The position numbers were made by a program, and so were the translations under genes. From Minisyncoccia bacterium (GTDB lineage Bacteria; Patescibacteriota; Minisyncoccia; Phycocordibacterales; PALSA-1337): a stretch of 64,000 nucleotides of DNA. The notes under the pieces were generated by a model. It saw only the letters and a list, made by a program, of their open reading frames with translations, was not told the origin of the DNA and did no database searches. Of the stretch, positions 3,723 to 63,322 are shown one piece after another (the first letter of the stretch is position 1; every line of letters starts with the position of its first letter). The stretch lies in NCBI GenBank assembly GCA_044228445.1, contig JBGAUV010000001.1:250495-314494 (forward strand), given 5' to 3'.

Positions 3723-5250
3723 TTAGTTAAGAGTTTGATCCTAGCTCAGGATGAACGCTGGCGGCGTGGATAAGGCATGCAAGTCAAACGGCTTAGCACT
3801 GTGCTCGCAAATTAATATTTGTTAGTAGAGTGCTAAGCAGTGGCAGACGAGGTAGTAATAAGCAGGTATCAACCTTCGAGTCAAGAATACCTCATCGAAA
3901 GATGAGTTAATACTTGATAGTCTCGAAAGAGTAAAGATTTATCGCTCGAAGATGAGCCTGTTCAGTATCAGCTAGTTGGTAGGGTAATGGCCTACCAAGG
4001 CTTCGACGCTTAGGGGAGGTGAGAGCCTGACCCCCACCGATGGAACTGAGACACGGTCCATACACCTACGGGTGGCCGCAGTCGAGAATCTTCCGCAATG
4101 GACGAAAGTCTGACGGAGCGACGCCGCGTGGATGATGAAGCACTTCGGTGCGTAAAATCCTTTTGCCAGGGAGAAAGTTTATTGATAGTACTTGGCGAAT
4201 AAGAGGTTGCTAAACTCGTGCCAGCAGCAGCGGTAATACGAGTGCCTCAAGCGTTATCCGGAATCATTGGGCGTAAAGGTTGTGTAGGTGGTTATATTAG
4301 TCTTTTGTTAAATTCTTCGGCTTAACCGGGGGCATGCAGAGGAAACGGTATAACTAGAGGATGCGAGGGGTTTCTGGAACTCATAGTGTAGCGGTAAAAT
4401 GCGTTGATATTATGGGGAACACCAAAAGCGAAGGCATGAAACTAGAGCACTCCTGACACTGAAACAAGAAAGCGTGGGTCGCGAATGGGATTAGATACCC
4501 CAGTAGTCCACGCCCTAAACGATCTTCTCTTGCTTTTCGGAGTATCGACCCTCCGAGAGGCGAAGCTAACGCGTTAAGAGAAGCGCCTGGGTAGTACGAC
4601 CGCAAGGTTAAAACTCAAAGGAATAGACGGGGACTTGCACAAGCGGTGGATCATGTGGCTCAATTCGACGGTAAACGAAGAACCTTACCAGGGTTTGAAA
4701 CCTAGCTGAATACTTTAGGAAACTAGAGTAGTCGCAAGACAGTTAGGCAGGTGATGCATGGCCGTCGTCAGTTCGTGGCTTGAGTTGTTCCCTTCAGTGG
4801 GGTAACGAACGCAACCCTCGTTGTCTGTTATATTTGTCAGGCGAGACTGCCCACGACATAGCGCATAAACTAAGTTTGTGCTCTGCGTCGTGGGAGGAAG
4901 GTGAGGATGACGCCAGGTCAGCATGTCCCTTTGATACCCTGGGCTGCACACGTGATACAATCGTATCTACAACAGGACGCAATACCGATAAAAGGTGGAG
5001 CAAATCCTTAGAAAAGATACGTCAGTTTGGATTGAGGTCTGCAACTCGACCTCATGAAACCGGAATCGCTAGTAATCGCAGATCAGCTATGCTGCGGTGA
5101 ATACGTTCTCAAGTCTTGTACTCACCGCCCGTCAACTCAAGGGAGTTGGGAGTACCCGAAGTCCGCGCTTGTCGCGGCCTAAGGTAAGCTCAATGACAGG
5201 GAGTAAGTCGTAACAAGGCACGGGTAGCGGAAGCTGCTCGTGGATTATTT
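3723..5250 (+). rRNA. rrs: 16S ribosomal RNA
   Basis: AGAGTTTGATCCTAGCTCAG at 3730; GTGCCAGCAGCAGCGGTAATACG (515 region, one mismatch to the universal primer); AAGTCGTAACAAGG at 5206; helix 45 with GGAA loop at 5221-5240. Confidence 0.95.
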
Positions 5251-5407
5251 CAAATTGAATCTTGATAATCCCTCAGGGATTATCTTACCGAGTCGATTTT
5301 TGTACTTAATTGTACAAACAAGGGATATTGTTCTACTACCTTACAGTGAACACTCAGTCTGCGAGAGAAAAGACAAAGATCGGTGTCCTCTATAGAGACA
5401 CTGATCG

Positions 5408-5437
5408 GATGAATGGAACAAAATAAAGTACAGTAAT
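5408..5437 (+). other. 3' strand of the 16S processing stem
   Basis: ATGAATGGAACAAAATAAA is complementary to 3701-3720. Confidence 0.6.
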
Positions 5438-5444
5438 ATGAAAG

Positions 5445-5475
5445 AACCGCTTAAAAGGCGGTTTTTTCTTTTTAT
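5445..5475 (+). terminator. Rho-independent terminator closing the 16S transcription unit
   Basis: AACCGC-TTAAAAG-GCGGTT followed by TTTTTCTTTTT. Confidence 0.7.
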
Positions 5476-5563
5476 AAATAATTATTTCCACATTTACTAT
5501 ATTTGATATGTGTGATATGTTTTTAGTGGAAATCTAGACATAGAGTCTAGTTAGAAAGGAGAT

Positions 5564-5722
5564 ATGAACAGACTTCAACTTGCTCGTAGGGTTGAGTATA
5601 GTCAACCCTCTGTTAAAGAACAAAAGCAATCAATCAGTGTTGGTTCATTTTTGCTTGCTTTGTTTATATTTATATTGGCTTTTGGGCCAATGGTAGTAGA
5701 AGGATTTCTTACAACATTTTAA
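5564..5722 (+). CDS. Small (52 aa) protein with a C-terminal TM helix
   Basis: AAAGGAGAT immediately 5' of the ATG; MNRLQLARRVEYSQPSVKEQKQSISVGSFLLALFIFILAFGPMVVEGFLTTF; below the ORF-track size cutoff. Confidence 0.4.
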   Translation: MNRLQLARRVEYSQPSVKEQKQSISVGSFLLALFIFILAFGPMVVEGFLTTF

Positions 5723-5799
5723 GGAGAGAAAGGAGATATGTTTCAATTTTTATAACCACGCGATTCTTTATGCGCGTGGTTTGTCATCTAGTTTAATAT

Positions 5800-6486
5800 A
5801 TGAAAATAAAATTTTTCAAAATAATAGTTTTAATAATAGCAATATTGTTCTCAAAACATGCTTTTGCAAAAGAAGTTATATGTCCTGAGGGGTATATTTG
5901 CTTACCAAAAAATGATCCACTTATACTTGCTTCAACAAGTCCTTGTTTTATAGGTTCAAGCATGACAACCTCTTTTAAGGATTTAGATTCAAAAGCTAAA
6001 TCAATAGGTGATAGTATTTCATTTAAATTATTAAATAAGAATAAAGATTACGCTGGTACTTGGGGAGTATTTAAAAGTGGAAGTGGATCAAGTCCTGATT
6101 ACAATAAAGATTGGGGTTTTGAACTAAGTCTAAATCTTTCAAAATTAAAAACCATAAAGTCTATTACAATTATAAACGATGATGGTAATGAAGGTTGGTC
6201 AACTAGTGCGGATGAAAAGTTATTTGGTAAAAAGCCTTATCCTCTTGTTGTTATAGATAAAAATGGAGAGCAATTAAATTATGAATATGAAGATACTATT
6301 TTTATACCAAAAGGTGAAAGTATTTTAAATCTATACGGTCAGATTGAATATAGTGACTTAAGAAATACGGAAATTGTTGTTATTTTCACTGATAATACTT
6401 ATTTGAATAGTAAGATTATTGAAAATGCTTCAACTCAAGCAAATAATAGTCTTTGGGCTAAGTTAAAATCTAAGTTTGGATTTTAA
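5800..6486 (+). CDS. Secreted protein of unknown function
   Basis: Signal peptide MKIKFFKIIVLIIAILFSKHAFA|KE; no recognisable domain. Confidence 0.6.
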   Translation: MKIKFFKIIVLIIAILFSKHAFAKEVICPEGYICLPKNDPLILASTSPCFIGSSMTTSFKDLDSKAKSIGDSISFKLLNKNKDYAGTWGVFKSGSGSSPDYNKDWGFELSLNLSKLKTIKSITIINDDGNEGWSTSADEKLFGKKPYPLVVIDKNGEQLNYEYEDTIFIPKGESILNLYGQIEYSDLRNTEIVVIFTDNTYLNSKIIENASTQANNSLWAKLKSKFGF

Positions 6487-6523
6487 TTGATGTTTAGTCG
6501 TATTTTTGGTATATTCAACAATG

Positions 6524-6555
6524 TTTTAAATGCGCGTATAGCTGACTTGGTAGGG
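6524..6555 (+). repeat. Degenerate duplicate of the tRNA-Ile 5' half plus its upstream flank
   Basis: ATGCGCGTATAGCTgacTTGGTAGgG versus ATGCGCGTATAGCTcagTTGGTAGaG at 6590-6615; diverges after the D-arm. Confidence 0.6.
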
Positions 6556-6591
6556 TTGAGTGTCACTTATACGTTTTGAGATTTTTACCAT

Positions 6592-6664
6592 GCGCGTATA
6601 GCTCAGTTGGTAGAGCACACCACTGATACTGGTGGGGTCCCTGGTTCGAGTCCAGGTACGCGCA
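6592..6664 (+). tRNA. tRNA-Ile (anticodon GAU), CCA not encoded
   Basis: Manual cloverleaf: acceptor GCGCGTA/TACGCGC, D-arm GCTC/GAGC, anticodon stem CACCA/TGGTG with loop CTGATAC, T-arm CCTGG-TTCGAGT-CCAGG. Confidence 0.9.
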
Positions 6665-6758
6665 CAAAGTTTTTATATTTCAAAAAATGTGGTAATGTAT
6701 TTGTGGAAAGGAGAAAAAATGACCGCATATACATTCGAAGGAAAAAAATAAAAAATCA

Positions 6759-17840: not shown

Positions 17841-19019
17841 ATGAGCTTTAAGGAAATTTATAAAAATAAGCTCTTATTAAATGGAACTGTATTCATAATA
17901 TTTCTTGTCGTCTCTGTAAAAATTTCTAACATACCTTTTATATATAATGCATATACTAGTTCAATAACTGATGCACTCGGTACAACAACAATACTTTTAA
18001 ATAAAAAGAAAATTGTTCATATACAAACCCCTGAACCAGTAAAAGCTGTTTATATGACTAGCTGGGTAGCGGGGAATATAAAATTAAGAAATAAAGTTAT
18101 TGATTTAATAGATAAGACAGAAATAAATTCCATTGTAATAGACATAAAGGATTATACAGGCAGAATAAGTTTTAAAGTTGATGATGAAAAATTAAAAGAA
18201 ATTGGTTCTGTAGAAGAAAGAATACCAGATATTGTTGGTTTGATTGATATGTTACATGAAAAAAATATTTATGTAATTGGTAGAATATCTAGTTTTCAAG
18301 ATTCATATTTTGTAAAGAAATTCCCTCAATATTCTGTAAAGACAAAGAGTGGGGAAGTTTGGAAGGATTATAAAGGAATAAGTTGGCTTGATGCTGGTGC
18401 CGAACCCGTATGGGATTATCTGGTTAATATAGGTAATGAAGCATATTCAAAAGGTTTTGATGAATTAAATTTTGACTACATACGTTTTCCTTCAGATGGA
18501 AACATGATAGATATTTCATATACTTTCGGTAAAGGTAGAAATAGAGTAGATGTAATGAAAGATTTTTATGCTTTTATTGATAAATCTTTTAGACCAAAAG
18601 GAATTCCAATTTCAGCAGATTTATTTGGTATGACAACTTCAAATAGTGATGACTTGGGAATAGGACAAATTCTTGGAAATGCACTTATGCATTTTGATTA
18701 TGTTGCGCCAATGATATATCCATCGCACTACCCACCAAACTTCAATGGTTGGCCAAATCCTGCAAAGAAACCATATGATGTTATCAAGTTTGCCCTTGAA
18801 AGGGGAGTGAATAAAGCTGCAATTGCTAGCACAAGTCCAAATAAACTACGTCCTTGGTTACAAGACTTTGGTATAAATGGTGTTCCATATACTCCAGATA
18901 TGGTTCGTGAACAAATTAAGGCTACATATGATGTTGGTCTTACGAGTTGGATGATGTGGAATGCTTCAAATAATTATTCTCTACCAGCATATGAAGTTGC
19001 AACTAGTACGGGAGTTTAG
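17841..19019 (+). CDS. Putative glycoside hydrolase (DUF4015-like TIM-barrel), membrane anchored
   Basis: GFDELNFDYIRFP motif; N-terminal TM anchor. Confidence 0.6.
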   Translation: MSFKEIYKNKLLLNGTVFIIFLVVSVKISNIPFIYNAYTSSITDALGTTTILLNKKKIVHIQTPEPVKAVYMTSWVAGNIKLRNKVIDLIDKTEINSIVIDIKDYTGRISFKVDDEKLKEIGSVEERIPDIVGLIDMLHEKNIYVIGRISSFQDSYFVKKFPQYSVKTKSGEVWKDYKGISWLDAGAEPVWDYLVNIGNEAYSKGFDELNFDYIRFPSDGNMIDISYTFGKGRNRVDVMKDFYAFIDKSFRPKGIPISADLFGMTTSNSDDLGIGQILGNALMHFDYVAPMIYPSHYPPNFNGWPNPAKKPYDVIKFALERGVNKAAIASTSPNKLRPWLQDFGINGVPYTPDMVREQIKATYDVGLTSWMMWNASNNYSLPAYEVATSTGV

Positions 19020-19023
19020 CTGT

Positions 19024-19053
19024 TGACAGAAAAGGTTGTTGCGTGCTAATATA
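19024..19053 (+). promoter_or_regulatory. Sigma70-type promoter TTGACA-N18-TAATAT with extended -10 (TGc)
   Basis: Read directly; immediately after the stop of the upstream gene. Confidence 0.55.
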
Positions 19054-19059
19054 TTTTTG

Positions 19060-19190
19060 CCACCCCAGAGGTATGAAATTGTTCCGTCGTCACCTCCTAG
19101 TGACCACAGGGTCATACCCCACGACGGGATGATCGATTACCTCTGAGGGTGGTATACGGCTTGCAGAATTTTTCTGCGGCCTTTTTTATT
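19060..19190 (+). ncRNA. Candidate structured small RNA (~130 nt), class unknown
   Basis: P1 CCACCC-c-AGAGGTA (19061-74) pairs with TACCTCT-ga-GGGTGG (19138-52). P2 is CCGTCGT/ACGACGG. Inner hairpin TGACC-ACAG-GGTCA. Own terminator GGC-GCAGAA-TTT-TTCTGC-GGCC plus a T6 run. Confidence 0.55.
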
Positions 19191-19344
19191 TATATTATAT
19201 TTATACACAATAAGTATTGCCTTTTTCATATATTAGATGTACTATATTTATCCGGATGCACTCTACCTCGGTTTACTACTAGGAGGTGGTAGACTCAATA
19301 GGGGTAAGGGGGAGCATTGAACCTAGTTAAGTTAGGAGGTCAAA

Positions 19345-19530
19345 GTGTCAAAGGAAAATCCTGTGACGTCATGGAGGGTGATCGGGAAGCCGGTAGTCCG
19401 AAGTGACGGACACAATATTGTCAAAGTCGATAATGGAGGAAAGAGGCCGAGAGAAGTCCTTGTACCAAAGGGCACTCCAGCCAAAAATTTCAACGCCTTT
19501 ATCAAGCAGGCATTGTATCCCACTTATTGA
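19345..19530 (+). CDS. Small (61 aa) protein of unknown function, GC-richer than flanks
   Basis: GTG start 4 nt after TAGGAGGT; followed by two hairpins including a GC-rich terminator. Confidence 0.55.
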   Translation: MSKENPVTSWRVIGKPVVRSDGHNIVKVDNGGKRPREVLVPKGTPAKNFNAFIKQALYPTY

Positions 19531-19565
19531 CATGACTGACACTTCCCCTACGGGGGAAAACTACA

Positions 19566-19596
19566 CCGCCGGGCCCAGTGGACCCGGCGGTTTTGC
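19566..19596 (+). terminator. Rho-independent terminator
   Basis: CCGCCGGG-CCCAGTGGA-CCCGGCGG-TTTTG. Confidence 0.75.
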
Positions 19597-19657
19597 ATAT
19601 GTGGATAAATATTTCACCAATATAAAATATGGTATAATAGTATGAGTATAAAATCTC

Positions 19658-21517
19658 ATGAATGAAGAAAGAATTACATATTTTGCTCAAACAGACGCTA
19701 GAAATAAAAAGGTTTCCTTTGGAATAAAAGCAAAGGATAGAACTCGTCATGTTTATGTAATAGGAAAAACAGGTATGGGTAAATCAACCCTACTTGAAAA
19801 CATGGCTGTACAAGACATAAAGAATGGTGAAGGAATGGCTTTTATAGATCCACACGGTAAAACAGCAGACTTACTTTTGGAATATGTACCAAAAGAAAGA
19901 ATAAAAGATGTAATATATTTTGCTCCTTTCGATCTAGATCACCCAATATCATTTAATGTGCTTGAAAAAGTAGATGCAGATAAAAGACATCTAGTAGTAT
20001 CAGGTTTGATGAGTACATTTAAAAAGATTTGGAAAGATGCTTGGTCAGCAAGAATGGAATATATTCTTACAAATACACTTTTAGCACTTCTTGAATATCC
20101 AGAAGCAACTTTGCTTGGTGTAAATAGAATGCTTTCAGATAAAGAGTATAGAAAAAAGGTTGTAGCTTCAGTAACTGATCCAGCAGTAAAAACATTTTGG
20201 GTAGAAGAATTTGCAAACTATACAGAACGTATGGCAGCAGAAGCAGTACCTGCAATACAAAATAAAATAGGACAGTTTACAGCAAATGCACTAATTAGAA
20301 ATATGATTGGTCAGCCAAAATCTTCTTTTGATATAAGAAAAGCAATGGATGAAAAGAAGATTATGATTATAAACCTATCAAAAGGTAGAATAGGAGAAAC
20401 AAATGCAAATCTATTGGGAGGTATGCTTATTACAAAAATATATCTAGCAGCACTTTCGCGAGCAGATGTACCTGATAGAGTATTAAAAACACTACCAAAC
20501 TTCTATTTATTCGTAGACGAGTTTCAATCTTTTGCAAATGAATCTTTTGCAGATATTCTATCAGAAGCAAGAAAGTATAAATTGAATCTAACAATAGCCC
20601 ATCAATACATTGAACAAATGGAAGAGGAAGTTAGAGCTGCTGTATTTGGAAACGTCGGAACAATGATTGTATTTCGTGTTGGTTCGTATGATGCTGAGGT
20701 TTTAGAAAAAGAATTTGCTCCGCAGTTTACAGCTGAAGATATTGTAAATCTTGGTTTTGCTCAAATATATTTAAAACTTATGATTGATGGAATAAGTTCA
20801 CTACCATTTTCTGCTACAACACTACCTCCAATTCCACAACCAGAGATTTCAAATGCAGATGAAGTTTTAGCTACTTCCAGAGCACAATTTGCAAAAAATA
20901 GAGATGAAGTTGAAAAGAATATTGCAGATTGGCATGCACCCATTACACCTCCACAAAAGAATAAAATACCAAAACCTCCAGAAAATACAAAAACAGATAA
21001 TTTACATAAAAATCAAGATAATAATCCAGCTCATAATATTCCGAAACCAATTCCTATACCAGTAAAACCACAAATGGAAGTAAATAATATTCCAAAACCT
21101 CATGTTGTTCAAAATCCAACAGTAAATCAAGCACAATTGGATAATAAAAATAACACACAAATACAAAATAACAATCATGGCAATATGGAAAATCATAAAG
21201 TTCATACTGAAGTTAATAATCACAAAACTGAAGAAAAAAAAGATGATTTTATTTCACTTGAAAGTTTAAAGAAACAGGTTACAAATACAGCTCCACAAAG
21301 TCAACACAAACCTCACGAAGTTCATGTAAAAAATGTAAAAGAACAAGATCCAAAAAATGTCAGTGAACTTAGAAATGCTTTAGCTTCAGTACTAAAGAAT
21401 AATAATTTACCTAAAAAAGACGAGGTAGATAAAAAAGAAAAAAATGAGGTAAAAAATGAGGTTCAAAAAGGTGAGGTTTCAGAGGATGTACTAAAACAGG
21501 TACTTAAGGTAGAGTAA
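19658..21517 (+). CDS. VirD4/TraG/TraD-like (T4SS coupling-protein-like) P-loop ATPase with a long low-complexity C-terminal tail
   Basis: Walker A GKTGMGKST, Walker B FYLFVDEFQSF, IAHQY; no N-terminal TM; tail rich in N/K/P/H/Q. Confidence 0.7.
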   Translation: MNEERITYFAQTDARNKKVSFGIKAKDRTRHVYVIGKTGMGKSTLLENMAVQDIKNGEGMAFIDPHGKTADLLLEYVPKERIKDVIYFAPFDLDHPISFNVLEKVDADKRHLVVSGLMSTFKKIWKDAWSARMEYILTNTLLALLEYPEATLLGVNRMLSDKEYRKKVVASVTDPAVKTFWVEEFANYTERMAAEAVPAIQNKIGQFTANALIRNMIGQPKSSFDIRKAMDEKKIMIINLSKGRIGETNANLLGGMLITKIYLAALSRADVPDRVLKTLPNFYLFVDEFQSFANESFADILSEARKYKLNLTIAHQYIEQMEEEVRAAVFGNVGTMIVFRVGSYDAEVLEKEFAPQFTAEDIVNLGFAQIYLKLMIDGISSLPFSATTLPPIPQPEISNADEVLATSRAQFAKNRDEVEKNIADWHAPITPPQKNKIPKPPENTKTDNLHKNQDNNPAHNIPKPIPIPVKPQMEVNNIPKPHVVQNPTVNQAQLDNKNNTQIQNNNHGNMENHKVHTEVNNHKTEEKKDDFISLESLKKQVTNTAPQSQHKPHEVHVKNVKEQDPKNVSELRNALASVLKNNNLPKKDEVDKKEKNEVKNEVQKGEVSEDVLKQVLKVE

Positions 21518-21521
21518 ATAC

Positions 21522-22727
21522 ATGGAAAAGGGGTTAAATACAGAGAAAAAGAGCAAAATACTGGTCTTTTCAGTAGCTTATTATCCTTATCTAATAGGAG
21601 GTGCCGAACTAGCGCTAAAAGAGATAACAGACAGAATCGGTGGAGATATGGATATTGATATGATTACTCTATATGCCGGAGAATCAAGATTGGAAAGAAT
21701 AGGGAATATAAATGTATATAGAGTTGGTCCAAAGATAAAATTAGTAAATGGAAAAATAACTCACATTCCTCTTTATGTGAAGTTATTGTATATGTTTTTT
21801 GCTTTCATAAAATCTTTATCACTCGAAAGACAAAAGAATTATGATTTTATTTGGTCTATGATGGCAAGTTTTTCTGGTTATGTTGCTTTATTTTTCAAAT
21901 TAATTAAACCAAAAAAGAAATTTTTATTAACACTACAGGAAGGTGACTCTCTTGAACATATAGAAAAAGCTATGGGTATTACATATCCAATTGCTAAACC
22001 TTTATATAGAAAAATATTTGAAAAAGCAGATATGATTCAAGCGATTTCAAAATTTCTCGGAGAATTTTCAAGAGATATGGGTTCAAAATGTCCAATTGAA
22101 ATAATTCCAAATGCAGTAGACTATAAACTTTTCTCAATGTCTCAACAGCAAGGTCAAATGAATGCACTTAGATCAGAACTAGGTTTAACAGAGAATGATA
22201 ATGTAATAATTACCACATCAAGATTGGTAATGAAAAATGCTATTGGAGATATTATAGATGCACTTACATATTTACCTTACAATACAAAGCTACTTATACT
22301 TGGTATTGGTTCTCAAGAAAAACTCTTAAAAGAAAAAGTTCAATTATTAAAACTTGATAATAGAGTACAGTTTATTGGTTATGTTCCATATAAAGAAATA
22401 CCACTATATTTAAGTATTTCAAATATATTTATTAGACCAAGTATATCAGAAGGTTTCGGTAATTCTTTTATTGAAGCAATGGCATCTGGAATACCAGTAA
22501 TAGCAACACCTGTAGGAGGAATAGTTGATTTTCTTTTTGATAATGAAACAGGTTTCTTTTGTAAGGTAAAAGATCCAAAAAGCATAGCTGATAAAATAGA
22601 CTATATAACTAACAATGTTGAAATAAGAGAAAAAGTAATAAAGAATGCAAAGAAAATGGTTAGTGAAAAATATGATTGGGATAAAATTGCTCAAGATATG
22701 AAGGTTAAAGTAATAGAAAAAATGTAA
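21522..22727 (+). CDS. Glycosyltransferase family 4 (GT-B)
   Basis: SISEGFGNSFIEAMASGIPVIATPVGG (E-x7-E region). Confidence 0.8.
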   Translation: MEKGLNTEKKSKILVFSVAYYPYLIGGAELALKEITDRIGGDMDIDMITLYAGESRLERIGNINVYRVGPKIKLVNGKITHIPLYVKLLYMFFAFIKSLSLERQKNYDFIWSMMASFSGYVALFFKLIKPKKKFLLTLQEGDSLEHIEKAMGITYPIAKPLYRKIFEKADMIQAISKFLGEFSRDMGSKCPIEIIPNAVDYKLFSMSQQQGQMNALRSELGLTENDNVIITTSRLVMKNAIGDIIDALTYLPYNTKLLILGIGSQEKLLKEKVQLLKLDNRVQFIGYVPYKEIPLYLSISNIFIRPSISEGFGNSFIEAMASGIPVIATPVGGIVDFLFDNETGFFCKVKDPKSIADKIDYITNNVEIREKVIKNAKKMVSEKYDWDKIAQDMKVKVIEKM

Positions 22728-60226: not shown

Positions 60227-60646
60227 ATGTTAGTTGTTAAGACTAAAATTAAAAATAGTGAAATTGAAGGACTAGGTCTATTTGCTGATCAGTTTATACC
60301 TAAAGGTAGTGTAATTTGGAAATATGATCCAAGTTTTGATATTTATTTTGATCCTAAGGAGGTAGAAAAAATGTCAGAACCGCAAAAAGACCTGATAATA
60401 CATTTTGCTTATCTTTCAAAAAAAAGTGGTAAATATGTTTATTCAATAGATAATACAAGATTCACAAATCATTCAAATAAACCAAATACCGTAGAAGATG
60501 AAAATGTTTGTAGTGATGATTTAGAAATATGTACTATTGCTGTTAAGGATATTCAAATAGGGGAGGAAATTACTATTGATTATCGGGTAATTGACGCAGT
60601 GGATGAAGGTAGTAATGAGGAGTATTTGAAGACGGTAGTTCTATAG
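60227..60646 (+). CDS. SET-domain protein (putative lysine methyltransferase)
   Basis: GLGLFA, RFTNHSNKPN, GEEITIDY; starts 3 nt after the nrdB stop, preceded by GGGGGAG. Confidence 0.8.
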   Translation: MLVVKTKIKNSEIEGLGLFADQFIPKGSVIWKYDPSFDIYFDPKEVEKMSEPQKDLIIHFAYLSKKSGKYVYSIDNTRFTNHSNKPNTVEDENVCSDDLEICTIAVKDIQIGEEITIDYRVIDAVDEGSNEEYLKTVVL

Positions 60647-60663
60647 AGTTTTTATGGTTTAGG
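60628..60663 (+). repeat. Junction motif copy 1
   Basis: GAAGACGGTAGTTCTATAGAGTTTTTATGGTTTAGG; supplies the last 6 codons and the stop of the SET gene. Confidence 0.7.
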
Positions 60664-60703
60664 AATAAAAGTGGGCTCACCGAAACGAATTTCAGTGAGC
60701 CCA
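60660..60703 (-). terminator. Minus-strand terminator hairpin
   Basis: On the minus strand: TGGGCTCAC-N14-GTGAGCCCA followed by CTTTTATT. Confidence 0.5.
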
Positions 60704-60748
60704 GGGACAACCTTTTTCTCATGTTTCGCTCGCCACTACTTAGATACC

Positions 60749-60921
60749 TAAGATTTAGGCAAAAATTTACCCCACTTACATTTCCGTAAGTGGGGCGTAC
60801 CTAGGAATTTAGGATGACTTGAATCGTCTTGCGACGAATGATCAGAGCCATAAAAACCTAGATATATAAGATACTGACTTCTACATCACAGCAAACTACT
60901 ATAACTTTGTCAAGTGACAAA
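60749..60921 (+). repeat. 173-bp repeat, copy 1
   Basis: 172/173 identical to 62711-62883 by manual alignment (C/T difference at 60888 versus 62850). Confidence 0.9.
60758..60878 (-). ncRNA. Candidate sRNA A, copy 1 (~120 nt)
   Basis: Minus-strand promoter TTGACA-N17-TGTGAT (60885-60913); internal TCGTC-GCAA-GACGA hairpin; terminator CCCCACTTAC-GGAAAT-GTAAGTGGGG then TAAATTTTTG. Confidence 0.5.
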
Positions 60922-60937
60922 TGTGTGTACCTAAAAC

Positions 60938-60964
60938 AGTGGTCTCATAGAGTTTAAGGTCTAG
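60938..60964 (+). repeat. Junction motif copy 2
   Basis: AGTGGTCTCATAGAGTTTAAGGTCTAG. Confidence 0.7.
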
Positions 60965-60969
60965 CTATA

Positions 60970-60998
60970 TTGACATACTAAACTAAATGTGCTATTTT
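60970..60998 (+). promoter_or_regulatory. Promoter of cassette A: TTGACA-N17-TATTTT with extended -10 TG
   Basis: Read directly. Confidence 0.5.
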
Positions 60999-61017
60999 TG
61001 TATGTAATAGCACATTT
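60985..61017. promoter_or_regulatory. 11-bp perfect inverted repeat spanning the -10/TSS (operator-like)
   Basis: AAATGTGCTAT-N11-ATAGCACATTT. Confidence 0.55.
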
Positions 61018-61050
61018 CAACGATTTCAACCCAAAACCATTAGGAGAACC

Positions 61051-61425
61051 ATGAGCAAGCCTTCTTTCACCGTATTTGTTGGCATAAAGGGCGAATTCTC
61101 AGAAGAAGATTACGCCAAACTTCCGTCCGAGCTTCGAAAAGCATACTCGCCGTGTCCTGAATGGGATCTGGGAGAGGAAATCATTATCGACGGATTGGAA
61201 TTTGATTCCTTTGACCTTGGTCGCGATGACACTGCTGATCCGGGAGAATATGTGGGCTTCGGCGTCCATATCTTCGGTCAGTGGTATGACAGCGGAGCTA
61301 CTTGCTTCGCTCTTGATGAGCTTCAAACAATCGAATCTGTTCGTCAGAAGATGACAACTCTCTTCGATCAATGGAAGCTCGATGCCAAAGTCGAAGTGTT
61401 CTGCTTTGCAGGATACAATTCATAA
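61051..61425 (+). CDS. Island cassette A: acidic 124-aa protein, unknown function
   Basis: TAGGAGA-N5-ATG; GC-rich codon usage unlike the flanks; own terminator. Confidence 0.65.
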   Translation: MSKPSFTVFVGIKGEFSEEDYAKLPSELRKAYSPCPEWDLGEEIIIDGLEFDSFDLGRDDTADPGEYVGFGVHIFGQWYDSGATCFALDELQTIESVRQKMTTLFDQWKLDAKVEVFCFAGYNS

Positions 61426-61441
61426 CCCATCAACTCACTCC

Positions 61442-61480
61442 AGAAAACCCCTGTCGCGAGATGGTGGGTTTTCTGTTTTA
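61442..61480 (+). terminator. Rho-independent terminator of cassette A
   Basis: AGAAAACCC...GGGTTTTCT-GTTTTAT. Confidence 0.7.
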
Positions 61481-61654
61481 TAAAATTCCAATATGTTGAT
61501 ACTAACAGACTTGAACGGCATCCTAAATAGATGTCATTTATTGTTACTTGCTATATAAAAATCTCGTTGATATGTTGTTAGGTAAGACGAGCTTGAAATC
61601 AAAATAAAAACTAGAGCATCTTCTATGGGGAATTCAATCAGTATTTAACTCTGT

Positions 61655-61688
61655 GAAGACGGTAGTATTATAGAGTTTAAGGTTTAGA
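61655..61688 (+). repeat. Junction motif copy 3
   Basis: GAAGACGGTAGTATTATAGAGTTTAAGGTTTAGA; the upstream AGTATTT is also shared with copy 1. Confidence 0.7.
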
Positions 61689-61692
61689 CTAC

Positions 61693-61720
61693 TTGACATA
61701 TGACCATGTCGTGATATAAT
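61693..61720 (+). promoter_or_regulatory. Promoter of cassette B: TTGACA-N16-TATAAT with extended -10 (TGa)
   Basis: Near-consensus sigma70 promoter read directly. Confidence 0.7.
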
Positions 61721-61779
61721 TTAAAAGGACTAGGATTTTTCCTAATGCTGTCCAGCAAAATCATACTTGGAGGATAGAA

Positions 61780-62139
61780 ATGTACTCTGACGATAAAACT
61801 CTAAAAGAGTTCATGACTGTACTTGTAAGTACAGCTGCGGCTCGGAGAAACTACTTGGATGTCCCTAGCGATTTCATTTTGAGACATCCCTGGACACTGA
61901 AATACCTTTCCAATTTCGCTGAGGCTGACGATTTCATGCAGATCGCGAAAACGGAAGGAGTCCAGATTGTTTGCGAGGATGAACCCAAAAACATTCAAGA
62001 GTTTCGCCGGGACCATGGTCTCAAACCACAGGTTCGCTACAAAGTGTTTGTTCCAGCCGAAACAAAAATCAGAACAAAAGAACAGATCTTCAAGTTCGAA
62101 AGACAAGGAGATGGTTCATATGTTCCACTCAATGGCTGA
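61780..62139 (+). CDS. Island cassette B: 119-aa protein, unknown function
   Basis: TGGAGGA-N5-ATG; own terminator. Confidence 0.65.
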   Translation: MYSDDKTLKEFMTVLVSTAAARRNYLDVPSDFILRHPWTLKYLSNFAEADDFMQIAKTEGVQIVCEDEPKNIQEFRRDHGLKPQVRYKVFVPAETKIRTKEQIFKFERQGDGSYVPLNG

Positions 62140-62142
62140 ACC

Positions 62143-62187
62143 AAAACCCCATCTACGCTTTCATGAGAAGATGGGGTTTTGTCTTTT
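62143..62187 (+). terminator. Rho-independent terminator of cassette B
   Basis: AAAACCCCATCT-N14-AGATGGGGTTTT-GTCTTTT. Confidence 0.75.
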
Positions 62188-62188
62188 A

Positions 62189-62222
62189 GAAGATGGTGGT
62201 TTAATGTAGTTTAAAATTTAGA
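62189..62222 (+). repeat. Junction motif copy 4
   Basis: GAAGATGGTGGTTTAATGTAGTTTAAAATTTAGA. Confidence 0.6.
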
Positions 62223-62388
62223 TAAAAGAAAGCCGGCCAAACCTTATGGGTCTGGCCGGGAAAGTGATGGGTATGCGCCCATCTGCGGATCATTTACGAT
62301 CATTTTGCCAGTAAAATAAGGTTATTTCTGGTTACGTATCCCTGGTATTGTGTCCAGACACGTAACTTATGAATACTAACCTTATTCT
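62222..62388 (-). ncRNA. Candidate sRNA B (~165 nt), same promoter as sRNA A, different body
   Basis: Promoter TTGACA-N17-TATGAT (62395-62423, minus strand). Long hairpin AATAAGGTTA...TAACCTTATT enclosing GTTACGT/ACGTAAC. GATGGG-CGCATA-CCCATC hairpin. Terminator CCGGCCAGACC-CATAAGG-GGTTTGGCCGG then CTTTCTTTT. Confidence 0.5.
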
Positions 62389-62429
62389 TTTACCATCATA
62401 GCAAATTACTATAACTTTGTCAAGTATTC

Positions 62430-62462
62430 AAAGATGTCGGTGTTATGGAGTTCAAGTTCTAA
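62430..62462 (+). repeat. Junction motif copy 5
   Basis: AAAGATGTCGGTGTTATGGAGTTCAAGTTCTAA. Confidence 0.55.
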
Positions 62463-62478
62463 CCTCTATTGATATAAT
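62451..62478 (+). promoter_or_regulatory. Promoter of cassette C: extended -10 TGaTATAAT, weak -35 TTCAAG
   Basis: Read directly. Confidence 0.5.
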
Positions 62479-62522
62479 TAATCTAGAGTGTTAATCTTCT
62501 TTTTAAGAAAGGAGAGTACATC

Positions 62523-62720
62523 ATGATCAAAATTACTGTCCGTAAAGAAGGAGAGAGAACCTTTGCGGCCTATGTGGACGATGAAAATATGCGGCGCATA
62601 GGTGAGTCTCGAGGAGAAGCTGTTGGCAAAGTCGTATCTGATCTCATTGAACAAAGGTCAGTACGGTTGGAAGATTGTCAAGTGCATCAAATCGAGATTA
62701 AACAAAAATATAAGATTTAG
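62523..62720 (+). CDS. Island cassette C: 65-aa protein, faint HicB/DUF1902-like N-terminal pattern
   Basis: AAAGGAGAG-N6-ATG; MIKITVRKEGERTFAAYVDD...GESRGEAVGKVVSDLIE. Confidence 0.55.
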   Translation: MIKITVRKEGERTFAAYVDDENMRRIGESRGEAVGKVVSDLIEQRSVRLEDCQVHQIEIKQKYKI

Positions 62721-62883
62721 GCAAAAATTTACCCCACTTACATTTCCGTAAGTGGGGCGTACCTAGGAATTTAGGATGACTTGAATCGTCTTGCGACGAA
62801 TGATCAGAGCCATAAAAACCTAGATATATAAGATACTGACTTCTACATCATAGCAAACTACTATAACTTTGTCAAGTGACAAA
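62711..62883 (+). repeat. 173-bp repeat, copy 2
   Basis: See copy 1; begins inside the last codons of cassette C. Confidence 0.9.
62720..62840 (-). ncRNA. Candidate sRNA A, copy 2
   Basis: Promoter TTGACA-N17-TATGAT (62847-62875, minus strand); body identical to copy 1. Confidence 0.5.
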
Positions 62884-62910
62884 GATAGTGGTCTCATCGG
62901 GTTTAAAATA
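62881..62910 (+). repeat. Junction motif copy 6 (degenerate)
   Basis: AAAGATAGTGGTCTCATCGGGTTTAAAATA. Confidence 0.5.
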
Positions 62911-62917
62911 ACCAGTA

Positions 62918-62946
62918 TTTACAATTTGTATAATTTAGTATATAAA
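62918..62946 (+). promoter_or_regulatory. Promoter of cassette D: TTTACA-N17-TATAAA
   Basis: Read directly. Confidence 0.5.
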
Positions 62947-62981
62947 AAATGTAGACTTAATTTAACACTGAAAGGTGCATC

Positions 62982-63200
62982 ATGAGTATTCTAAGAGAAT
63001 TCCGTAACGCCAGCCCAAGTGAAAAAGACCCTGCAAAACTTATTTTATTCACAGTATTTGCTGACCTTAATGCTCGGCACGGCTTCGGGGATTTCTGGAG
63101 CGGTATTAACAATGATATAAAAGAAGAAATTTTGAAAACAAATCTCGAAAAGATAAGAGAAATACTGAAGAAAAAGACTCAAACCAAAAACAAAGATTGA
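62982..63200 (+). CDS. Island cassette D: 72-aa protein, unknown function
   Basis: AAAGGTG-N4-ATG; own terminator. Confidence 0.6.
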   Translation: MSILREFRNASPSEKDPAKLILFTVFADLNARHGFGDFWSGINNDIKEEILKTNLEKIREILKKKTQTKNKD

Positions 63201-63224
63201 AAAAAAGTGACTGAATCAATCCAG

Positions 63225-63268
63225 GCCTCGTGTATATACATAAAAGTAAACACGAGGCTTTGAATTTT
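63225..63268 (+). terminator. Rho-independent terminator of cassette D
   Basis: GCCTCGTG-N18-CACGAGGC-TTTGAATTTT. Confidence 0.75.
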
Positions 63269-63322
63269 ATATATCACACTTATATTTTAATAAATAACCA
63301 TTTGCCATAATATATTAAGATA

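What the first reader, a model, noticed from the sequence alone, without database searches (positions are those of the whole stretch)
19092..19340. Loop of the 19-kb RNA is an exact anti-SD mimic complementary to two downstream TAGGAGGT sites
The single-stranded segment CACCTCCTAGT (19092-19102) contains the canonical 16S anti-SD core CACCUCCU, which the resident 16S lacks. It is perfectly complementary over 11 nt to ACTAGGAGGTG at 19278-19288. It is also complementary over 8 nt to the SD TAGGAGGT at 19333-19340, which serves the 61-aa ORF. This could be cis or trans sequestration of the ribosome-binding site, that is, an sRNA or riboregulator. More speculatively, the SD-like element may be recognised by this RNA rather than by the ribosome.
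Basis: partly seen in the sequence, partly recalled or inferred. Interest (0 to 1): 0.55.

Follow-up and report, generated by a model that had tools for sequence, protein, structure and literature searches.

The report
Small RNA with anti-Shine-Dalgarno-like loop
A previously undescribed ~100-nt small RNA of a Paceibacteria (CPR) bacterium, whose own ribosome has lost the anti-Shine-Dalgarno sequence, always exposes ACCUCC in a loop and sits next to a small-protein mRNA whose leader always carries matching GGAGGU motifs, so it most likely controls that mRNA by base pairing.

Summary
It is perfectly complementary to 19278-19288 and matches 19331-19340 over 8 bp plus 2 G·U. The resident 16S ends GGAUUAUUUCAA and has no CCUCC.

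The element is an independent small-RNA gene with a promoter, a 97-nt hairpin and a terminator. It matches no Rfam family. Downstream is a separately promoted, structured leader and a real 61-aa ORF.

In relatives the sRNA body diverges very fast, but ACCUCC is present and unpaired in every variant. GGAGGU occurs 20 times in the 9 leaders that follow such an sRNA. It occurs 0 times in 13 homologous leaders without one. This supports an sRNA-leader pairing that most likely masks the start region.

Only the 6-nt core is conserved; the 11-nt match is lineage-specific. Accessibility-corrected energies are weak (-3 to -7 kcal/mol). Cognate pairs are no better than non-cognate pairs. The adjacent mRNA is not the best predicted target in the window.

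Because the lineage lacks an anti-SD and hardly uses SDs, GGAGGU here is probably not a ribosome-binding site. A trans-acting surrogate anti-SD remains pure speculation. This is a new sRNA family of a known mechanistic kind; function is untested.

The parts
19023..19052 (+). Promoter of the small RNA: TTGACA, 18 nt, TAATAT, with TG before the -10
   Evidence: TTGACA-N18-TAnnnT preceded by (G/A)TGC is kept at the same place, right after the DUF4015 stop codon, in L007, L009, L014, L015, L016 and L017.
19058..19156 (+). Small RNA body: a closed long hairpin made of outer stem P1, internal loop, stem P2, internal loop and apical hairpin P3
   Evidence: MFE -64.4 kcal/mol with terminator, z = -7.8. 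The + strand folds better than the - strand. Compensatory and G·U changes are seen in P1 and P2. The CM scores 110 bits on + against 32 bits on -. No Rfam family matches.
19091..19099 (+). Exposed CACCUCCUA (5' strand of the internal loop); the conserved core ACCUCC is at 19092-19097
   Evidence: P(unpaired) is 0.6-1.0. ACCUCC is found in all 10 sRNA sequences examined (12 motif instances), with mean P(unpaired) 0.87 against 0.29 sRNA-wide. The chance of ACCUCC in a shuffle is 2-4% per sequence.
19116..19120 (+). Second C-rich strand of the same internal loop (ACCCC)
   Evidence: UACCCC is complementary to GGGGUA at 19301-19306. C-rich second loops also occur in relatives: UCCCAC in L007, L009 and L015, and CCCCCA in L014.
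19158..19187 (+). Intrinsic terminator of the small RNA
   Evidence: Relatives have different terminator sequences at the same position, each followed by a U run.
19217..19245 (+). Promoter of the small-ORF mRNA (TTGCCT, 17 nt, TACTAT). It is preceded by the spacer motif ATACACA (19203-19209), which all sRNA-bearing lineages share
   Evidence: Read from sequence. TTGC(C/A/T)T-N16-17-TA(C/T/A)(T/G)AT and ATACACA are conserved in L007, L014 and L016.
19250..19344 (+). Structured 5' leader of the mRNA; it starts AUCCGGAUG and contains a long hairpin
   Evidence: Homologous leaders lie downstream of DUF4015 in many Paceibacteria.
19278..19288 (+). Site 1: ACUAGGAGGUG, an 11-nt perfect complement of 19091-19101. 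AGGA forms the loop of the leader hairpin and the rest is paired
   Evidence: opening cost about 12 kcal/mol.
19331..19340 (+). Site 2: GUUAGGAGGU, 8 Watson-Crick plus 2 G·U pairs with the loop. The GGAGG core ends 5 nt before the GUG start
   Evidence: This is the best accessible pairing in the window lineage (-5.6 to -7.4 kcal/mol).
19345..19530 (+). 61-aa ORF (GUG start); a real but narrowly distributed small basic protein of unknown function
   Evidence: Homologues of 43-67% identity exist in L007, L013 and L014. Between window and L007, 16 codons changed synonymously and 20 non-synonymously. AF2 pLDDT is 81 with a beta-beta-beta-alpha fold. No Pfam, PADLOC or PDB-fold match.
19543..19597 (+). 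3' hairpin and strong intrinsic terminator of the mRNA
   Evidence: It is conserved in L007 and L008 even where the ORF is replaced.

Best explanation
An independently transcribed, fast-evolving ~100-nt hairpin sRNA presents a conserved ACCUCC motif in an unpaired loop. The window variant reads CACCUCCUA. The motif pairs loop-to-loop with GGAGGU motifs in the leader of the neighbouring, separately promoted small-ORF mRNA. One GGAGGU lies in or next to the loop of the leader's 5' hairpin. The other lies 4-6 nt upstream of the start codon.

The resident 16S has no anti-SD and the lineage hardly uses SDs. GGAGGU is therefore most likely an sRNA docking site rather than a ribosome-binding site. 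Pairing at -11..-6 would occlude the initiation region and repress translation of an exchangeable and possibly harmful small-protein cassette. That logic resembles C-rich-loop sRNAs such as RsaE/RoxS and type I antitoxin RNAs.

Shown: the RNA gene and its structure, exposure and conservation of ACCUCC, co-occurrence with GGAGGU, absence of the anti-SD, and the coding status of the ORF. Inferred: that the two RNAs actually pair, the direction of regulation (repression), and the nature of the cargo.
For: Gene anatomy is complete: promoter, hairpin (z -7.8) and terminator. G·U and compensatory changes on the + strand support the fold.

Six divergent sRNA variants exist: window, L015, L007/8, L009, L014 and L016/17. 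They share position, promoter, long-hairpin architecture, terminator and the ATACACA spacer, but little sequence. All contain ACCUCC, with mean P(unpaired) 0.87 against 0.29 for the whole sRNA. Each occurrence has a 2-4% chance expectation.

L015 has 95% flanking-protein identity and the same leader, yet its sRNA core is replaced and still keeps ACCUCC in a loop.

Leaders behind an sRNA hold 21 GGAGG, of which 20 are GGAGGU, in 9 of 9 loci, including one 4-6 nt before the start. Thirteen homologous leaders without an adjacent sRNA hold 3 GGAGG and no GGAGGU.

sRNA-bearing loci fall in two separate DUF4015 clades.

In 7 of the 8 lineages modelled, the best accessibility-corrected pairing is ACCUCC(N) x (N)GGAGGU. 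The exception is L016, where CACACCUC x GAGGUGUG ranks first.

The 11-nt match in the window has p of about 0.01 or less.

The 16S lacks the anti-SD. This is a known trait of a Parcubacteria subgroup. GGAG, GAGG or AGGA lies about 8-11 nt upstream of the start in only 3 of 51 long window ORFs. An SD-like motif is found upstream of 1 of 48 genes in relatives.
Against: Only 6 nt are conserved, and the predicted net energies are weak at -3 to -7 kcal/mol. Cognate sRNA-leader pairs are no better than non-cognate pairs, -5.4 against -5.1. Several coding-region sites elsewhere in the window score better, for example 21595-21603 at -11.4. Site 1 is largely buried in a stable hairpin. The sRNA-bearing loci represent only two or three independent lineages, so the co-occurrence could be partly inherited. 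L040 has GGAGG motifs (as GGAGGA) but no sRNA on its short contig. GGAGGU with SD-like spacing is also what an ordinary SD would look like. There are no expression or binding data.
Confidence: 0.5

Rival explanations
1. The sRNA is real, but the complementarity to the neighbour is incidental. ACCUCC serves another partner, either other mRNAs or a C-rich-loop-binding protein. The GGAGGU motifs are ordinary SD or hairpin motifs inherited with a mobile small-ORF cassette. That cassette would have evolved in, or circulates among, Parcubacteria that still have an anti-SD.
For: About half of Parcubacteria keep the anti-SD. The ORF cassette is clearly exchanged between strains. GC content is 43-50% in a 29% GC genome. 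GGAGG-to-start spacing is SD-like at 4-6 nt. Other accessory small ORFs at 61-63 kb also carry GGAG-like motifs. The neighbour is not the best predicted target, and flanks do not co-evolve. Leader hairpin loops in sRNA-less relatives are also G/A-rich.
Against: GGAGGU occurs 20 times in 9 sRNA-linked leaders and never in 13 sRNA-less homologous leaders. The leader, not the ORF, carries the motifs, and the leader stays fixed while ORFs are swapped. Relatives with the module also lack SDs on their other genes. The sRNA and leader stay adjacent across about 25-37% flanking-protein divergence and in two clades.
Confidence: 0.25
2. The element is a cis-acting riboregulator. The sRNA terminator is leaky, and the hairpin is the 5' domain of one long leader. 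Its ACCUCC loop contacts the GGAGGU motifs intramolecularly to set translation, acting as a structural switch or sensor.
For: The two elements are on the same strand, about 190-240 nt apart, and always adjacent. In a modelled read-through transcript both hairpins fold independently, leaving both loops free for a tertiary contact.
Against: The terminators are strong and conserved but differ in sequence, each with a U run. A separate, conserved promoter and a conserved leader 5' end (AUCCGGAUG) lie between the two elements. The same leader exists without any upstream hairpin in many relatives.
Confidence: 0.12
3. The hairpin is a DNA-level element, for example a recombination site for cassette exchange similar to an integron attC, rather than an RNA gene.
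For: It is a long imperfect palindrome next to a strain-variable cassette, and assemblies break just after DUF4015.
Against: The exchanged segment runs from the start codon to the terminator, about 190 nt from the hairpin. Stem substitutions preserve G·U on the + strand only. The CM scores 110 bits on + against 32 on -. A conserved promoter and terminator flank the hairpin. No recombinase gene is nearby.
Confidence: 0.05
4. The sRNA is a trans-acting surrogate anti-SD. It bridges GGAGG-bearing mRNAs to an anti-SD-less ribosome and activates their translation.
For: The only support is the coincidence of a lost 16S anti-SD, an sRNA with the anti-SD core, and SD-like spacing of GGAGG.
Against: No conserved second surface for the ribosome was found. 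The UGAAAU stretch that could pair with the 16S tail (AUUUCA) is not kept in L001 or L007. The sRNA evolves far too fast for a translation-machinery component. There is no precedent.
Confidence: 0.03

Closest known systems
C-rich-loop regulatory sRNAs of Firmicutes (RsaE/RoxS; the UCCC-loop hairpins of S. aureus RNAIII and Rsa RNAs). From my own knowledge.
   Same: They are stand-alone sRNAs with their own promoter and terminator. C-rich motifs are displayed in unpaired loops and pair with G-rich SD regions of target mRNAs to block initiation. Seeds are short and contacts are loop-loop.
   Different: There is no sequence or structure match to any Rfam family. The host ribosome has no anti-SD, so the target motif is not a working SD. 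The sRNA is physically linked to one target and evolves very fast. No chaperone is known in CPR.
Type I toxin-antitoxin pairs whose antitoxin RNA acts through short trans complementarity at or near the RBS (IstR-1/tisB, OhsC/shoB, SprA1AS/SprA1, RalA/ralR). From my own knowledge.
   Same: An sRNA gene sits adjacent to a small-ORF mRNA. The mRNA has a long structured leader and the sRNA a strong promoter. The cargo is strain-variable, and the predicted effect is translational repression.
   Different: Complementarity is 6-11 nt rather than about 16-20 nt or more. The ORFs are hydrophilic and are not small membrane peptides. Several unrelated ORF families share the same leader. Toxicity is untested.
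The anti-Shine-Dalgarno tail of 16S rRNA
   Same: The sequence CACCUCCU is identical in the window variant, and it pairs with GGAGGU at SD-like spacing.
   Different: The motif is not part of 16S and is not at a 3' end. It lies in an internal or apical loop of a hairpin. Only ACCUCC is conserved.
cis anti-SD (anti-RBS) strands of riboswitch expression platforms and RNA thermometers. From my own knowledge.
   Same: A CCUCC-type strand masks a GGAGG near the start codon.
   Different: Here the two strands are on separately promoted and terminated transcripts, and no ligand-binding or thermosensing fold is recognisable.
CsrA/RsmA-controlled leaders. From my own knowledge.
   Same: GGA motifs are displayed in hairpin loops of a leader, one overlapping the SD position, with spacing of about 50 nt.
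   Different: The linked sRNA carries the complement (CCUCC), not GGA decoys. No CsrA homologue was looked for.

Membership tests
16S rRNA anti-SD (part of SSU rRNA) | Located at the 3' terminus of 16S rRNA, just after helix 45 | tested here: not met
   The 16S gene is at 3723-5255 and ends GGAUUAUUUCAA. The motif lies 14 kb away, inside a 97-nt hairpin.
Any curated RNA family (Rfam 15, including RsaE, SRP, 6S, tmRNA, Y RNA and riboswitches) | Covariance-model score at or near the gathering threshold | tested here: not met
   There is no hit in 18950-19700 even at E<=10, apart from two chance matches downstream at 19561-19683. The gathering-threshold search of the window finds only 16S, tRNA-Ile and RNase P.
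Trans-acting base-pairing sRNA (mechanistic class) | Independent transcription unit (promoter plus intrinsic terminator) encoding a structured non-coding RNA | tested here: met
   The promoter and terminator are conserved in six lineages. This is prediction only; there are no transcript data.
Trans-acting base-pairing sRNA (mechanistic class) | Conserved, accessible seed complementary to a conserved site in the target | tested here: met
   ACCUCC is in all variants with P(unpaired) 0.87. GGAGGU is in all 9 linked leaders and in none of 13 unlinked leaders. However, the seed is only 6 nt.
Trans-acting base-pairing sRNA (mechanistic class) | Physical pairing and a regulatory effect, shown by compensatory mutations | not testable with these tools
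   This needs EMSA or structure probing and reporter assays.
Type I toxin-antitoxin system | Small (under about 60 aa) hydrophobic or membrane toxin, or a demonstrably toxic protein | tested here: not met
   The ORFs are 57-89 aa and hydrophilic or basic. Family A is predicted to be soluble with a beta-beta-beta-alpha fold. Toxicity was not tested.
Type I toxin-antitoxin system | Antitoxin RNA with extended (about 16 nt or more) complementarity to the toxin mRNA | tested here: not met
   The match is 11 nt in the window and 6-9 nt in relatives.
Type I toxin-antitoxin system | Antitoxin RNA gene adjacent to the toxin gene | tested here: met
   The sRNA lies about 190 nt upstream of the mRNA start in all six lineages.
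Functional Shine-Dalgarno site | Pairs with the anti-SD of the resident 16S rRNA | tested here: not met
   The resident 16S has no CCUCC. GGAG, GAGG or AGGA lies about 8-11 nt upstream of the start in only 3 of 51 long window ORFs. An SD-like motif is found upstream of 1 of 48 genes in relatives.
Functional Shine-Dalgarno site | GGAGG core 4-9 nt upstream of the start codon | tested here: met
   Spacing is 4-6 nt in all nine linked leaders.
CsrA/RsmA-regulated leader | GGA in hairpin loops, one at the SD, together with a CsrA protein in the genome | not tested
   The loop GGAs are present. No search for CsrA was made, and only 64 kb of the genome is available.

The most novel reading that the evidence does not exclude
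In a bacterial lineage that has deleted the anti-SD from its 16S rRNA, the SD:anti-SD helix survives as a free-standing RNA-RNA device. A dedicated sRNA carries the anti-SD core and reads GGAGG motifs on accessory mRNAs in place of the ribosome. In the extreme form it acts as a trans-supplied anti-SD that tethers these mRNAs to the 30S subunit, or licenses them for it.
Probability: 0.04. Interest if true: 0.95.

Novelty: new member of a known kind. Interest (0 to 1): 0.5.

Why it matters
Regulatory small RNAs have essentially not been described in CPR/Patescibacteria. My literature searches found none. This locus offers a concrete candidate with defined, testable nucleotides: ACCUCC and GGAGGU.

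It also bears on how translation starts in Parcubacteria that lost the anti-SD (PMC9297842). In such a genome GGAGG is freed from ribosome recognition and can be used as a private address for an sRNA.

The linked leader drives a strain-variable set of small proteins next to a TraD/HerA-like ATPase. This may mark a conflict or host-interaction hotspot in these episymbionts.

Tried and rejected
- Rfam at gathering threshold and at E<=10: no family for the sRNA or the leader.
- ARAGORN: no tmRNA.
- blastn of 19020-19600 against phages and plasmids: nothing.
- Viral-contig scans with the family A protein and with the leader 5' end: none, or chance hits in GC-rich phage coding regions.
- Word-index and full HMMER searches with the 61-aa protein: only 3 clusters.
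- Pfam and PADLOC: nothing for the small ORFs.
- AlphaFold model plus Foldseek against the PDB: no significant fold match.
- CM built from close relatives: finds L015 and L008 but not L014, L016 or L017, and finds no second copy in the window.
- MAFFT could not align the distant sRNA variants.
- Energy tests did not single out the neighbour. Cognate equals non-cognate, and the neighbour ranks about 10th in the window.
- An adaptor idea, with sRNA UGAAAU pairing with the 16S tail AUUUCA, was rejected because that stretch is not conserved.
- SRP, 6S and Y RNA identities were rejected: no Rfam match, no conserved motifs, and evolution far too fast.
- The alternative that 19250-19600 is a non-coding RNA rather than an mRNA was rejected, because protein homologues exist and substitutions are partly synonymous.
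- Contigs for P0003 and P0006 end just after DUF4015 and gave no extra sRNA variants.

Full report
**1. Observation**

The window is a 29% GC bacterial segment. It carries a bacterial 16S gene (3723-5255), tRNA-Ile and RNase P.

Its perfect reverse complement ACTAGGAGGTG is at 19278-19288, and TAGGAGGT is at 19333-19340. With two G·U pairs the second match extends to 10 bp, 19331-19340.

The 16S ends ...GUAACAAGGCACGGGUAGCGGAAGCUGCUCGUGGAUUAUUUCAAAUUG. There is no CCUCC there or downstream, so the resident 16S does lack the anti-SD.

A perfect complement of 11 nt or more between the 97-nt RNA and 19250-19600 arises in 0.6-1% of dinucleotide shuffles. The observation therefore stands and is unlikely to be chance.

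**2. What the element is**

Positions 19023-19052 hold a near-consensus promoter: TTGACA, 18 nt, TAATAT, with TG before the -10. Positions 19058-19156 fold into one long closed hairpin. Positions 19158-19187 are an intrinsic terminator. The fold is far more stable than shuffles (z = -7.8).

In the fold, 19091-19099 (CACCUCCUA) is the 5' strand of an internal loop, with P(unpaired) 0.6-1.0. G19100 and U19101 belong to the apical stem. No Rfam family matches, even at E<=10.

Downstream there is a second promoter: TTGCCT, 17 nt, TACTAT, at 19217-19245. A 95-nt structured leader starts AUCCGGAUG. The 61-codon GUG ORF runs 19345-19530, followed by a strong terminator at 19565-19597.

The ORF is real. 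It has homologues at 43-67% identity with invariant W, G, P, R-DG, VD-GG, R-VL and K-T positions. Between window and L007, 16 codons changed synonymously and 20 non-synonymously. The AlphaFold model is confident, pLDDT 81, with a beta-beta-beta-alpha fold. Nothing identifies its function.

**3. Organism and translation context**

Flanking proteins place the window in Paceibacteria/Parcubacteria. Tsurumaki et al. 2022 (PMC9297842, read) reported that a Parcubacteria subgroup lacks the 16S anti-SD motif. The loss is therefore a known lineage trait.

Consistently, GGAG, GAGG or AGGA lies about 8-11 nt upstream of the start codon in only 3 of 51 long ORFs in the window. Those three ORFs cluster at 60-62 kb. 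An SD-like motif is found upstream of 1 of 48 genes in relatives' loci. By eye, many genes have a TATAAT just upstream of the ATG. A GGAGG 5 nt before a start codon is exceptional here and cannot work through the resident 16S.

**4. Relatives**

The gene order DUF4015, intergenic module, TraD/HerA-like ATPase, GT4 is conserved.

Six divergent versions of the sRNA were found:
- the window type (window and L005, with L001 a close sequence variant of it);
- L015;
- L007/L008;
- L009;
- L014;
- L016/L017.

All begin right after the DUF4015 stop codon with TTGACA-N18-TAnnnT. All form a long closed hairpin of 84-119 nt and end in a terminator. All are followed by an ATACACA spacer and the mRNA promoter.

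Close relatives show G·U and compensatory changes in stems P1 and P2. A covariance model scores the + strand 110 bits against 32 on the - strand.

The body evolves remarkably fast. L015 has 95% identity in the flanking protein and an identical leader. Its promoter and terminator are conserved, but its core is largely different.

Despite this turnover, ACCUCC is present in every variant. It sits on the 5' side of the internal loop, on the 3' side, or in the apical loop. Its mean P(unpaired) is 0.87, against 0.29 for the RNAs as a whole. Its chance occurrence is 2-4% per sequence.

**5. The partner**

I compared 22 homologous leaders.
- The 9 leaders that follow an sRNA contain 21 GGAGG, of which 20 are GGAGGU. 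There is always one 4-6 nt before the start codon and at least one more upstream, usually in or next to a hairpin loop.
- The 13 leaders with no sRNA between DUF4015 and the mRNA contain 3 GGAGG and no GGAGGU. Typically they have no SD-like motif at all, and most end ...GUUAUG.

On a DUF4015 tree the sRNA-bearing loci form one clade (window, L007-9, L016/17) plus a distant locus, L014. L014's neighbours L013 and L029 lack the sRNA. A conserved 6-bp complementarity, ACCUCC:GGAGGU, thus tracks presence of the sRNA. This is the strongest evidence for a functional link.

**6. Limits**

The 'exact anti-SD mimic' and the 11-nt match are specific to the window lineage.
- L001-type sRNAs pair over 9 nt with site 1.
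- L015 pairs over 6-7 nt.
- L007, L009, L014, L016 and L017 pair over 6-9 nt.
- Motif flanks vary: CACCUCCU, CACCUCCA, GACCUCCC, UACCUCCA and AACCUCCC.

An RNAup-like calculation (hybridisation plus opening energies) gives only -3 to -7 kcal/mol for the best pairing in each lineage. Site 1 in the window costs about 12 kcal/mol to open, because it is part of the leader hairpin. Cognate pairs are no better than non-cognate pairs, -5.4 against -5.1 kcal/mol. Several coding-region sites elsewhere in the window score better than the neighbouring leader.

In a modelled read-through transcript the two hairpins fold independently, so any contact would be a loop-loop contact.

**7. Mechanism proposed**

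The sRNA is made from a strong, conserved promoter. I propose that it docks by loop-loop pairing on the GGAGGU motifs of the neighbouring leader. Occupancy of the motif at -11..-6 would occlude the initiation region and repress translation.

Because the ribosome has no anti-SD, GGAGGU is most simply a private docking site for the sRNA.

The cargo is exchangeable. L007 and L008 encode the identical DUF4015 protein and share the same sRNA, leader and terminator. Yet they carry unrelated ORFs: the 63-aa family A and the 89-aa family B, which has an amphipathic C-terminus. L009 also has family B. Contigs often break right after DUF4015.

This resembles a tightly controlled accessory, possibly harmful, small-protein cassette, as in type I toxin-antitoxin logic. 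The defining features of type I systems, a hydrophobic toxin and long complementarity, are not met. The pairing itself, the direction of regulation and the nature of the cargo are all inferences.

**8. Rivals**

- Incidental complementarity, with GGAGGU as an inherited SD of a mobile cassette (0.25).
- A cis-acting long leader produced by read-through (0.12).
- A DNA-level recombination hairpin (0.05).
- A trans-acting surrogate anti-SD that helps the ribosome (0.03).

Evidence for and against each is given in the structured fields.

**9. Comparison and novelty**

Functionally the closest analogues are C-rich-loop sRNAs that mask SD regions (RsaE/RoxS, RNAIII hairpins) and trans-acting type I antitoxin RNAs. 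Membership of any curated family was tested and not met.

Searches of the paper library found no description of regulatory sRNAs in Patescibacteria or of an anti-SD-like sRNA in anti-SD-less lineages.

I rate it a new sRNA family of a known mechanistic kind. The context is unusual: there is no ribosomal anti-SD, and a fixed sRNA-leader module drives swappable ORFs. Interest is 0.5. The module is real, conserved and testable, but the pairing is short and unproven.

Noticed in passing
window 5200-5330 (16S 3' end) and the upstream regions of 51 long window ORFs: The 16S tail reads GGAUUAUUUCAAAUUG instead of GAUCACCUCCUUA. Sixteen of 51 long ORFs have 6 nt or more complementary to this tail within -20..-1, against 12.9% of random 20-mers from the window. 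AT-richness of upstream regions was not controlled, so this may be compositional. It could also hint at a lineage-specific replacement of the SD interaction.
   Followed up: partly
L007 5415-5760, L008 1584-2000, L009 5430-5830 (equivalent to window 19250-19600): Strains with the identical DUF4015 protein share the sRNA, the leader and (L007/L008) the terminator but carry unrelated ORFs. L007 has the 63-aa family A, and L008 and L009 have the 86-89-aa family B. The exchange runs from the start codon to the 3' hairpin. Contigs L117-L119 end just after DUF4015, as expected for a strain-variable spot.
   Followed up: partly
L010 5202-5290, L019 3675-3775, L021 2523-2615, L022 3631-3712, L027 3614-3707, L028 1352-1431, L029 3653-3728, L031 3586-3682; window 19250-19344: A conserved leader lies downstream of DUF4015 across Paceibacteria. 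Its 5' end holds a (A)UCCGGA(U) palindrome, followed by a long stem enclosing a hairpin with a G/A-rich loop, then a 3' bulge such as CGAUCCAC. It mostly ends ...GUUAUG. It precedes unrelated small hydrophilic ORFs and a strong terminator, and the TraD/HerA-like ATPase gene always follows. It is not in Rfam for the window copy. This may be a new cis-regulatory leader or operator.
   Followed up: partly
window 60600-63300: This is an array of small GC-richer ORFs (61051-61425, 61780-62139, 62523-62720, 62982-63200). Most follow a TTGACA promoter, and each has a GGAG- or AGGUG-like motif before the start. There is a 173-nt direct repeat (60749-60921 and 62711-62883, 99% identical). Read on the minus strand, it looks like a promoter, a small RNA and a terminator. 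Junction repeats of 25-45 nt (AAGAYGGTRGT..TAGAGTTTAAGGT) occur at 60627, 60933, 61654, 62188, 62431 and 62882. The region looks like a cassette array with antisense RNAs.
   Followed up: no
window 19658-21517: The TraD/TrwB/HerA-like P-loop ATPase next to the module matches the PADLOC model mad8 (E 9.5e-15). It also gives weak Pfam TrwB_AAD_bind, DUF87 and TraG-D_C hits. Its low-complexity C-terminal half is rich in K, N, P and Q. In L013, L014 and L029 the slot is instead followed by type IV pilin and prepilin peptidase genes.
   Followed up: no
L040 1125-1165; L016 3868-3893; L017 3905-3931: GGAGG-type motifs also occur in terminator hairpins of the module. The loop of the L040 mRNA terminator reads UUCGGAGGAA. 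The L016/L017 sRNA terminators read ..CUUUCGGGAGGGUU. The significance is unknown.
   Followed up: no
window 5256-6700: The 16S gene is followed by a 228-aa ORF (5800-6486) and then tRNA-Ile (6592-6665). No 23S rRNA gene is in the 64-kb window, so the rRNA genes appear unlinked or interrupted.
   Followed up: no
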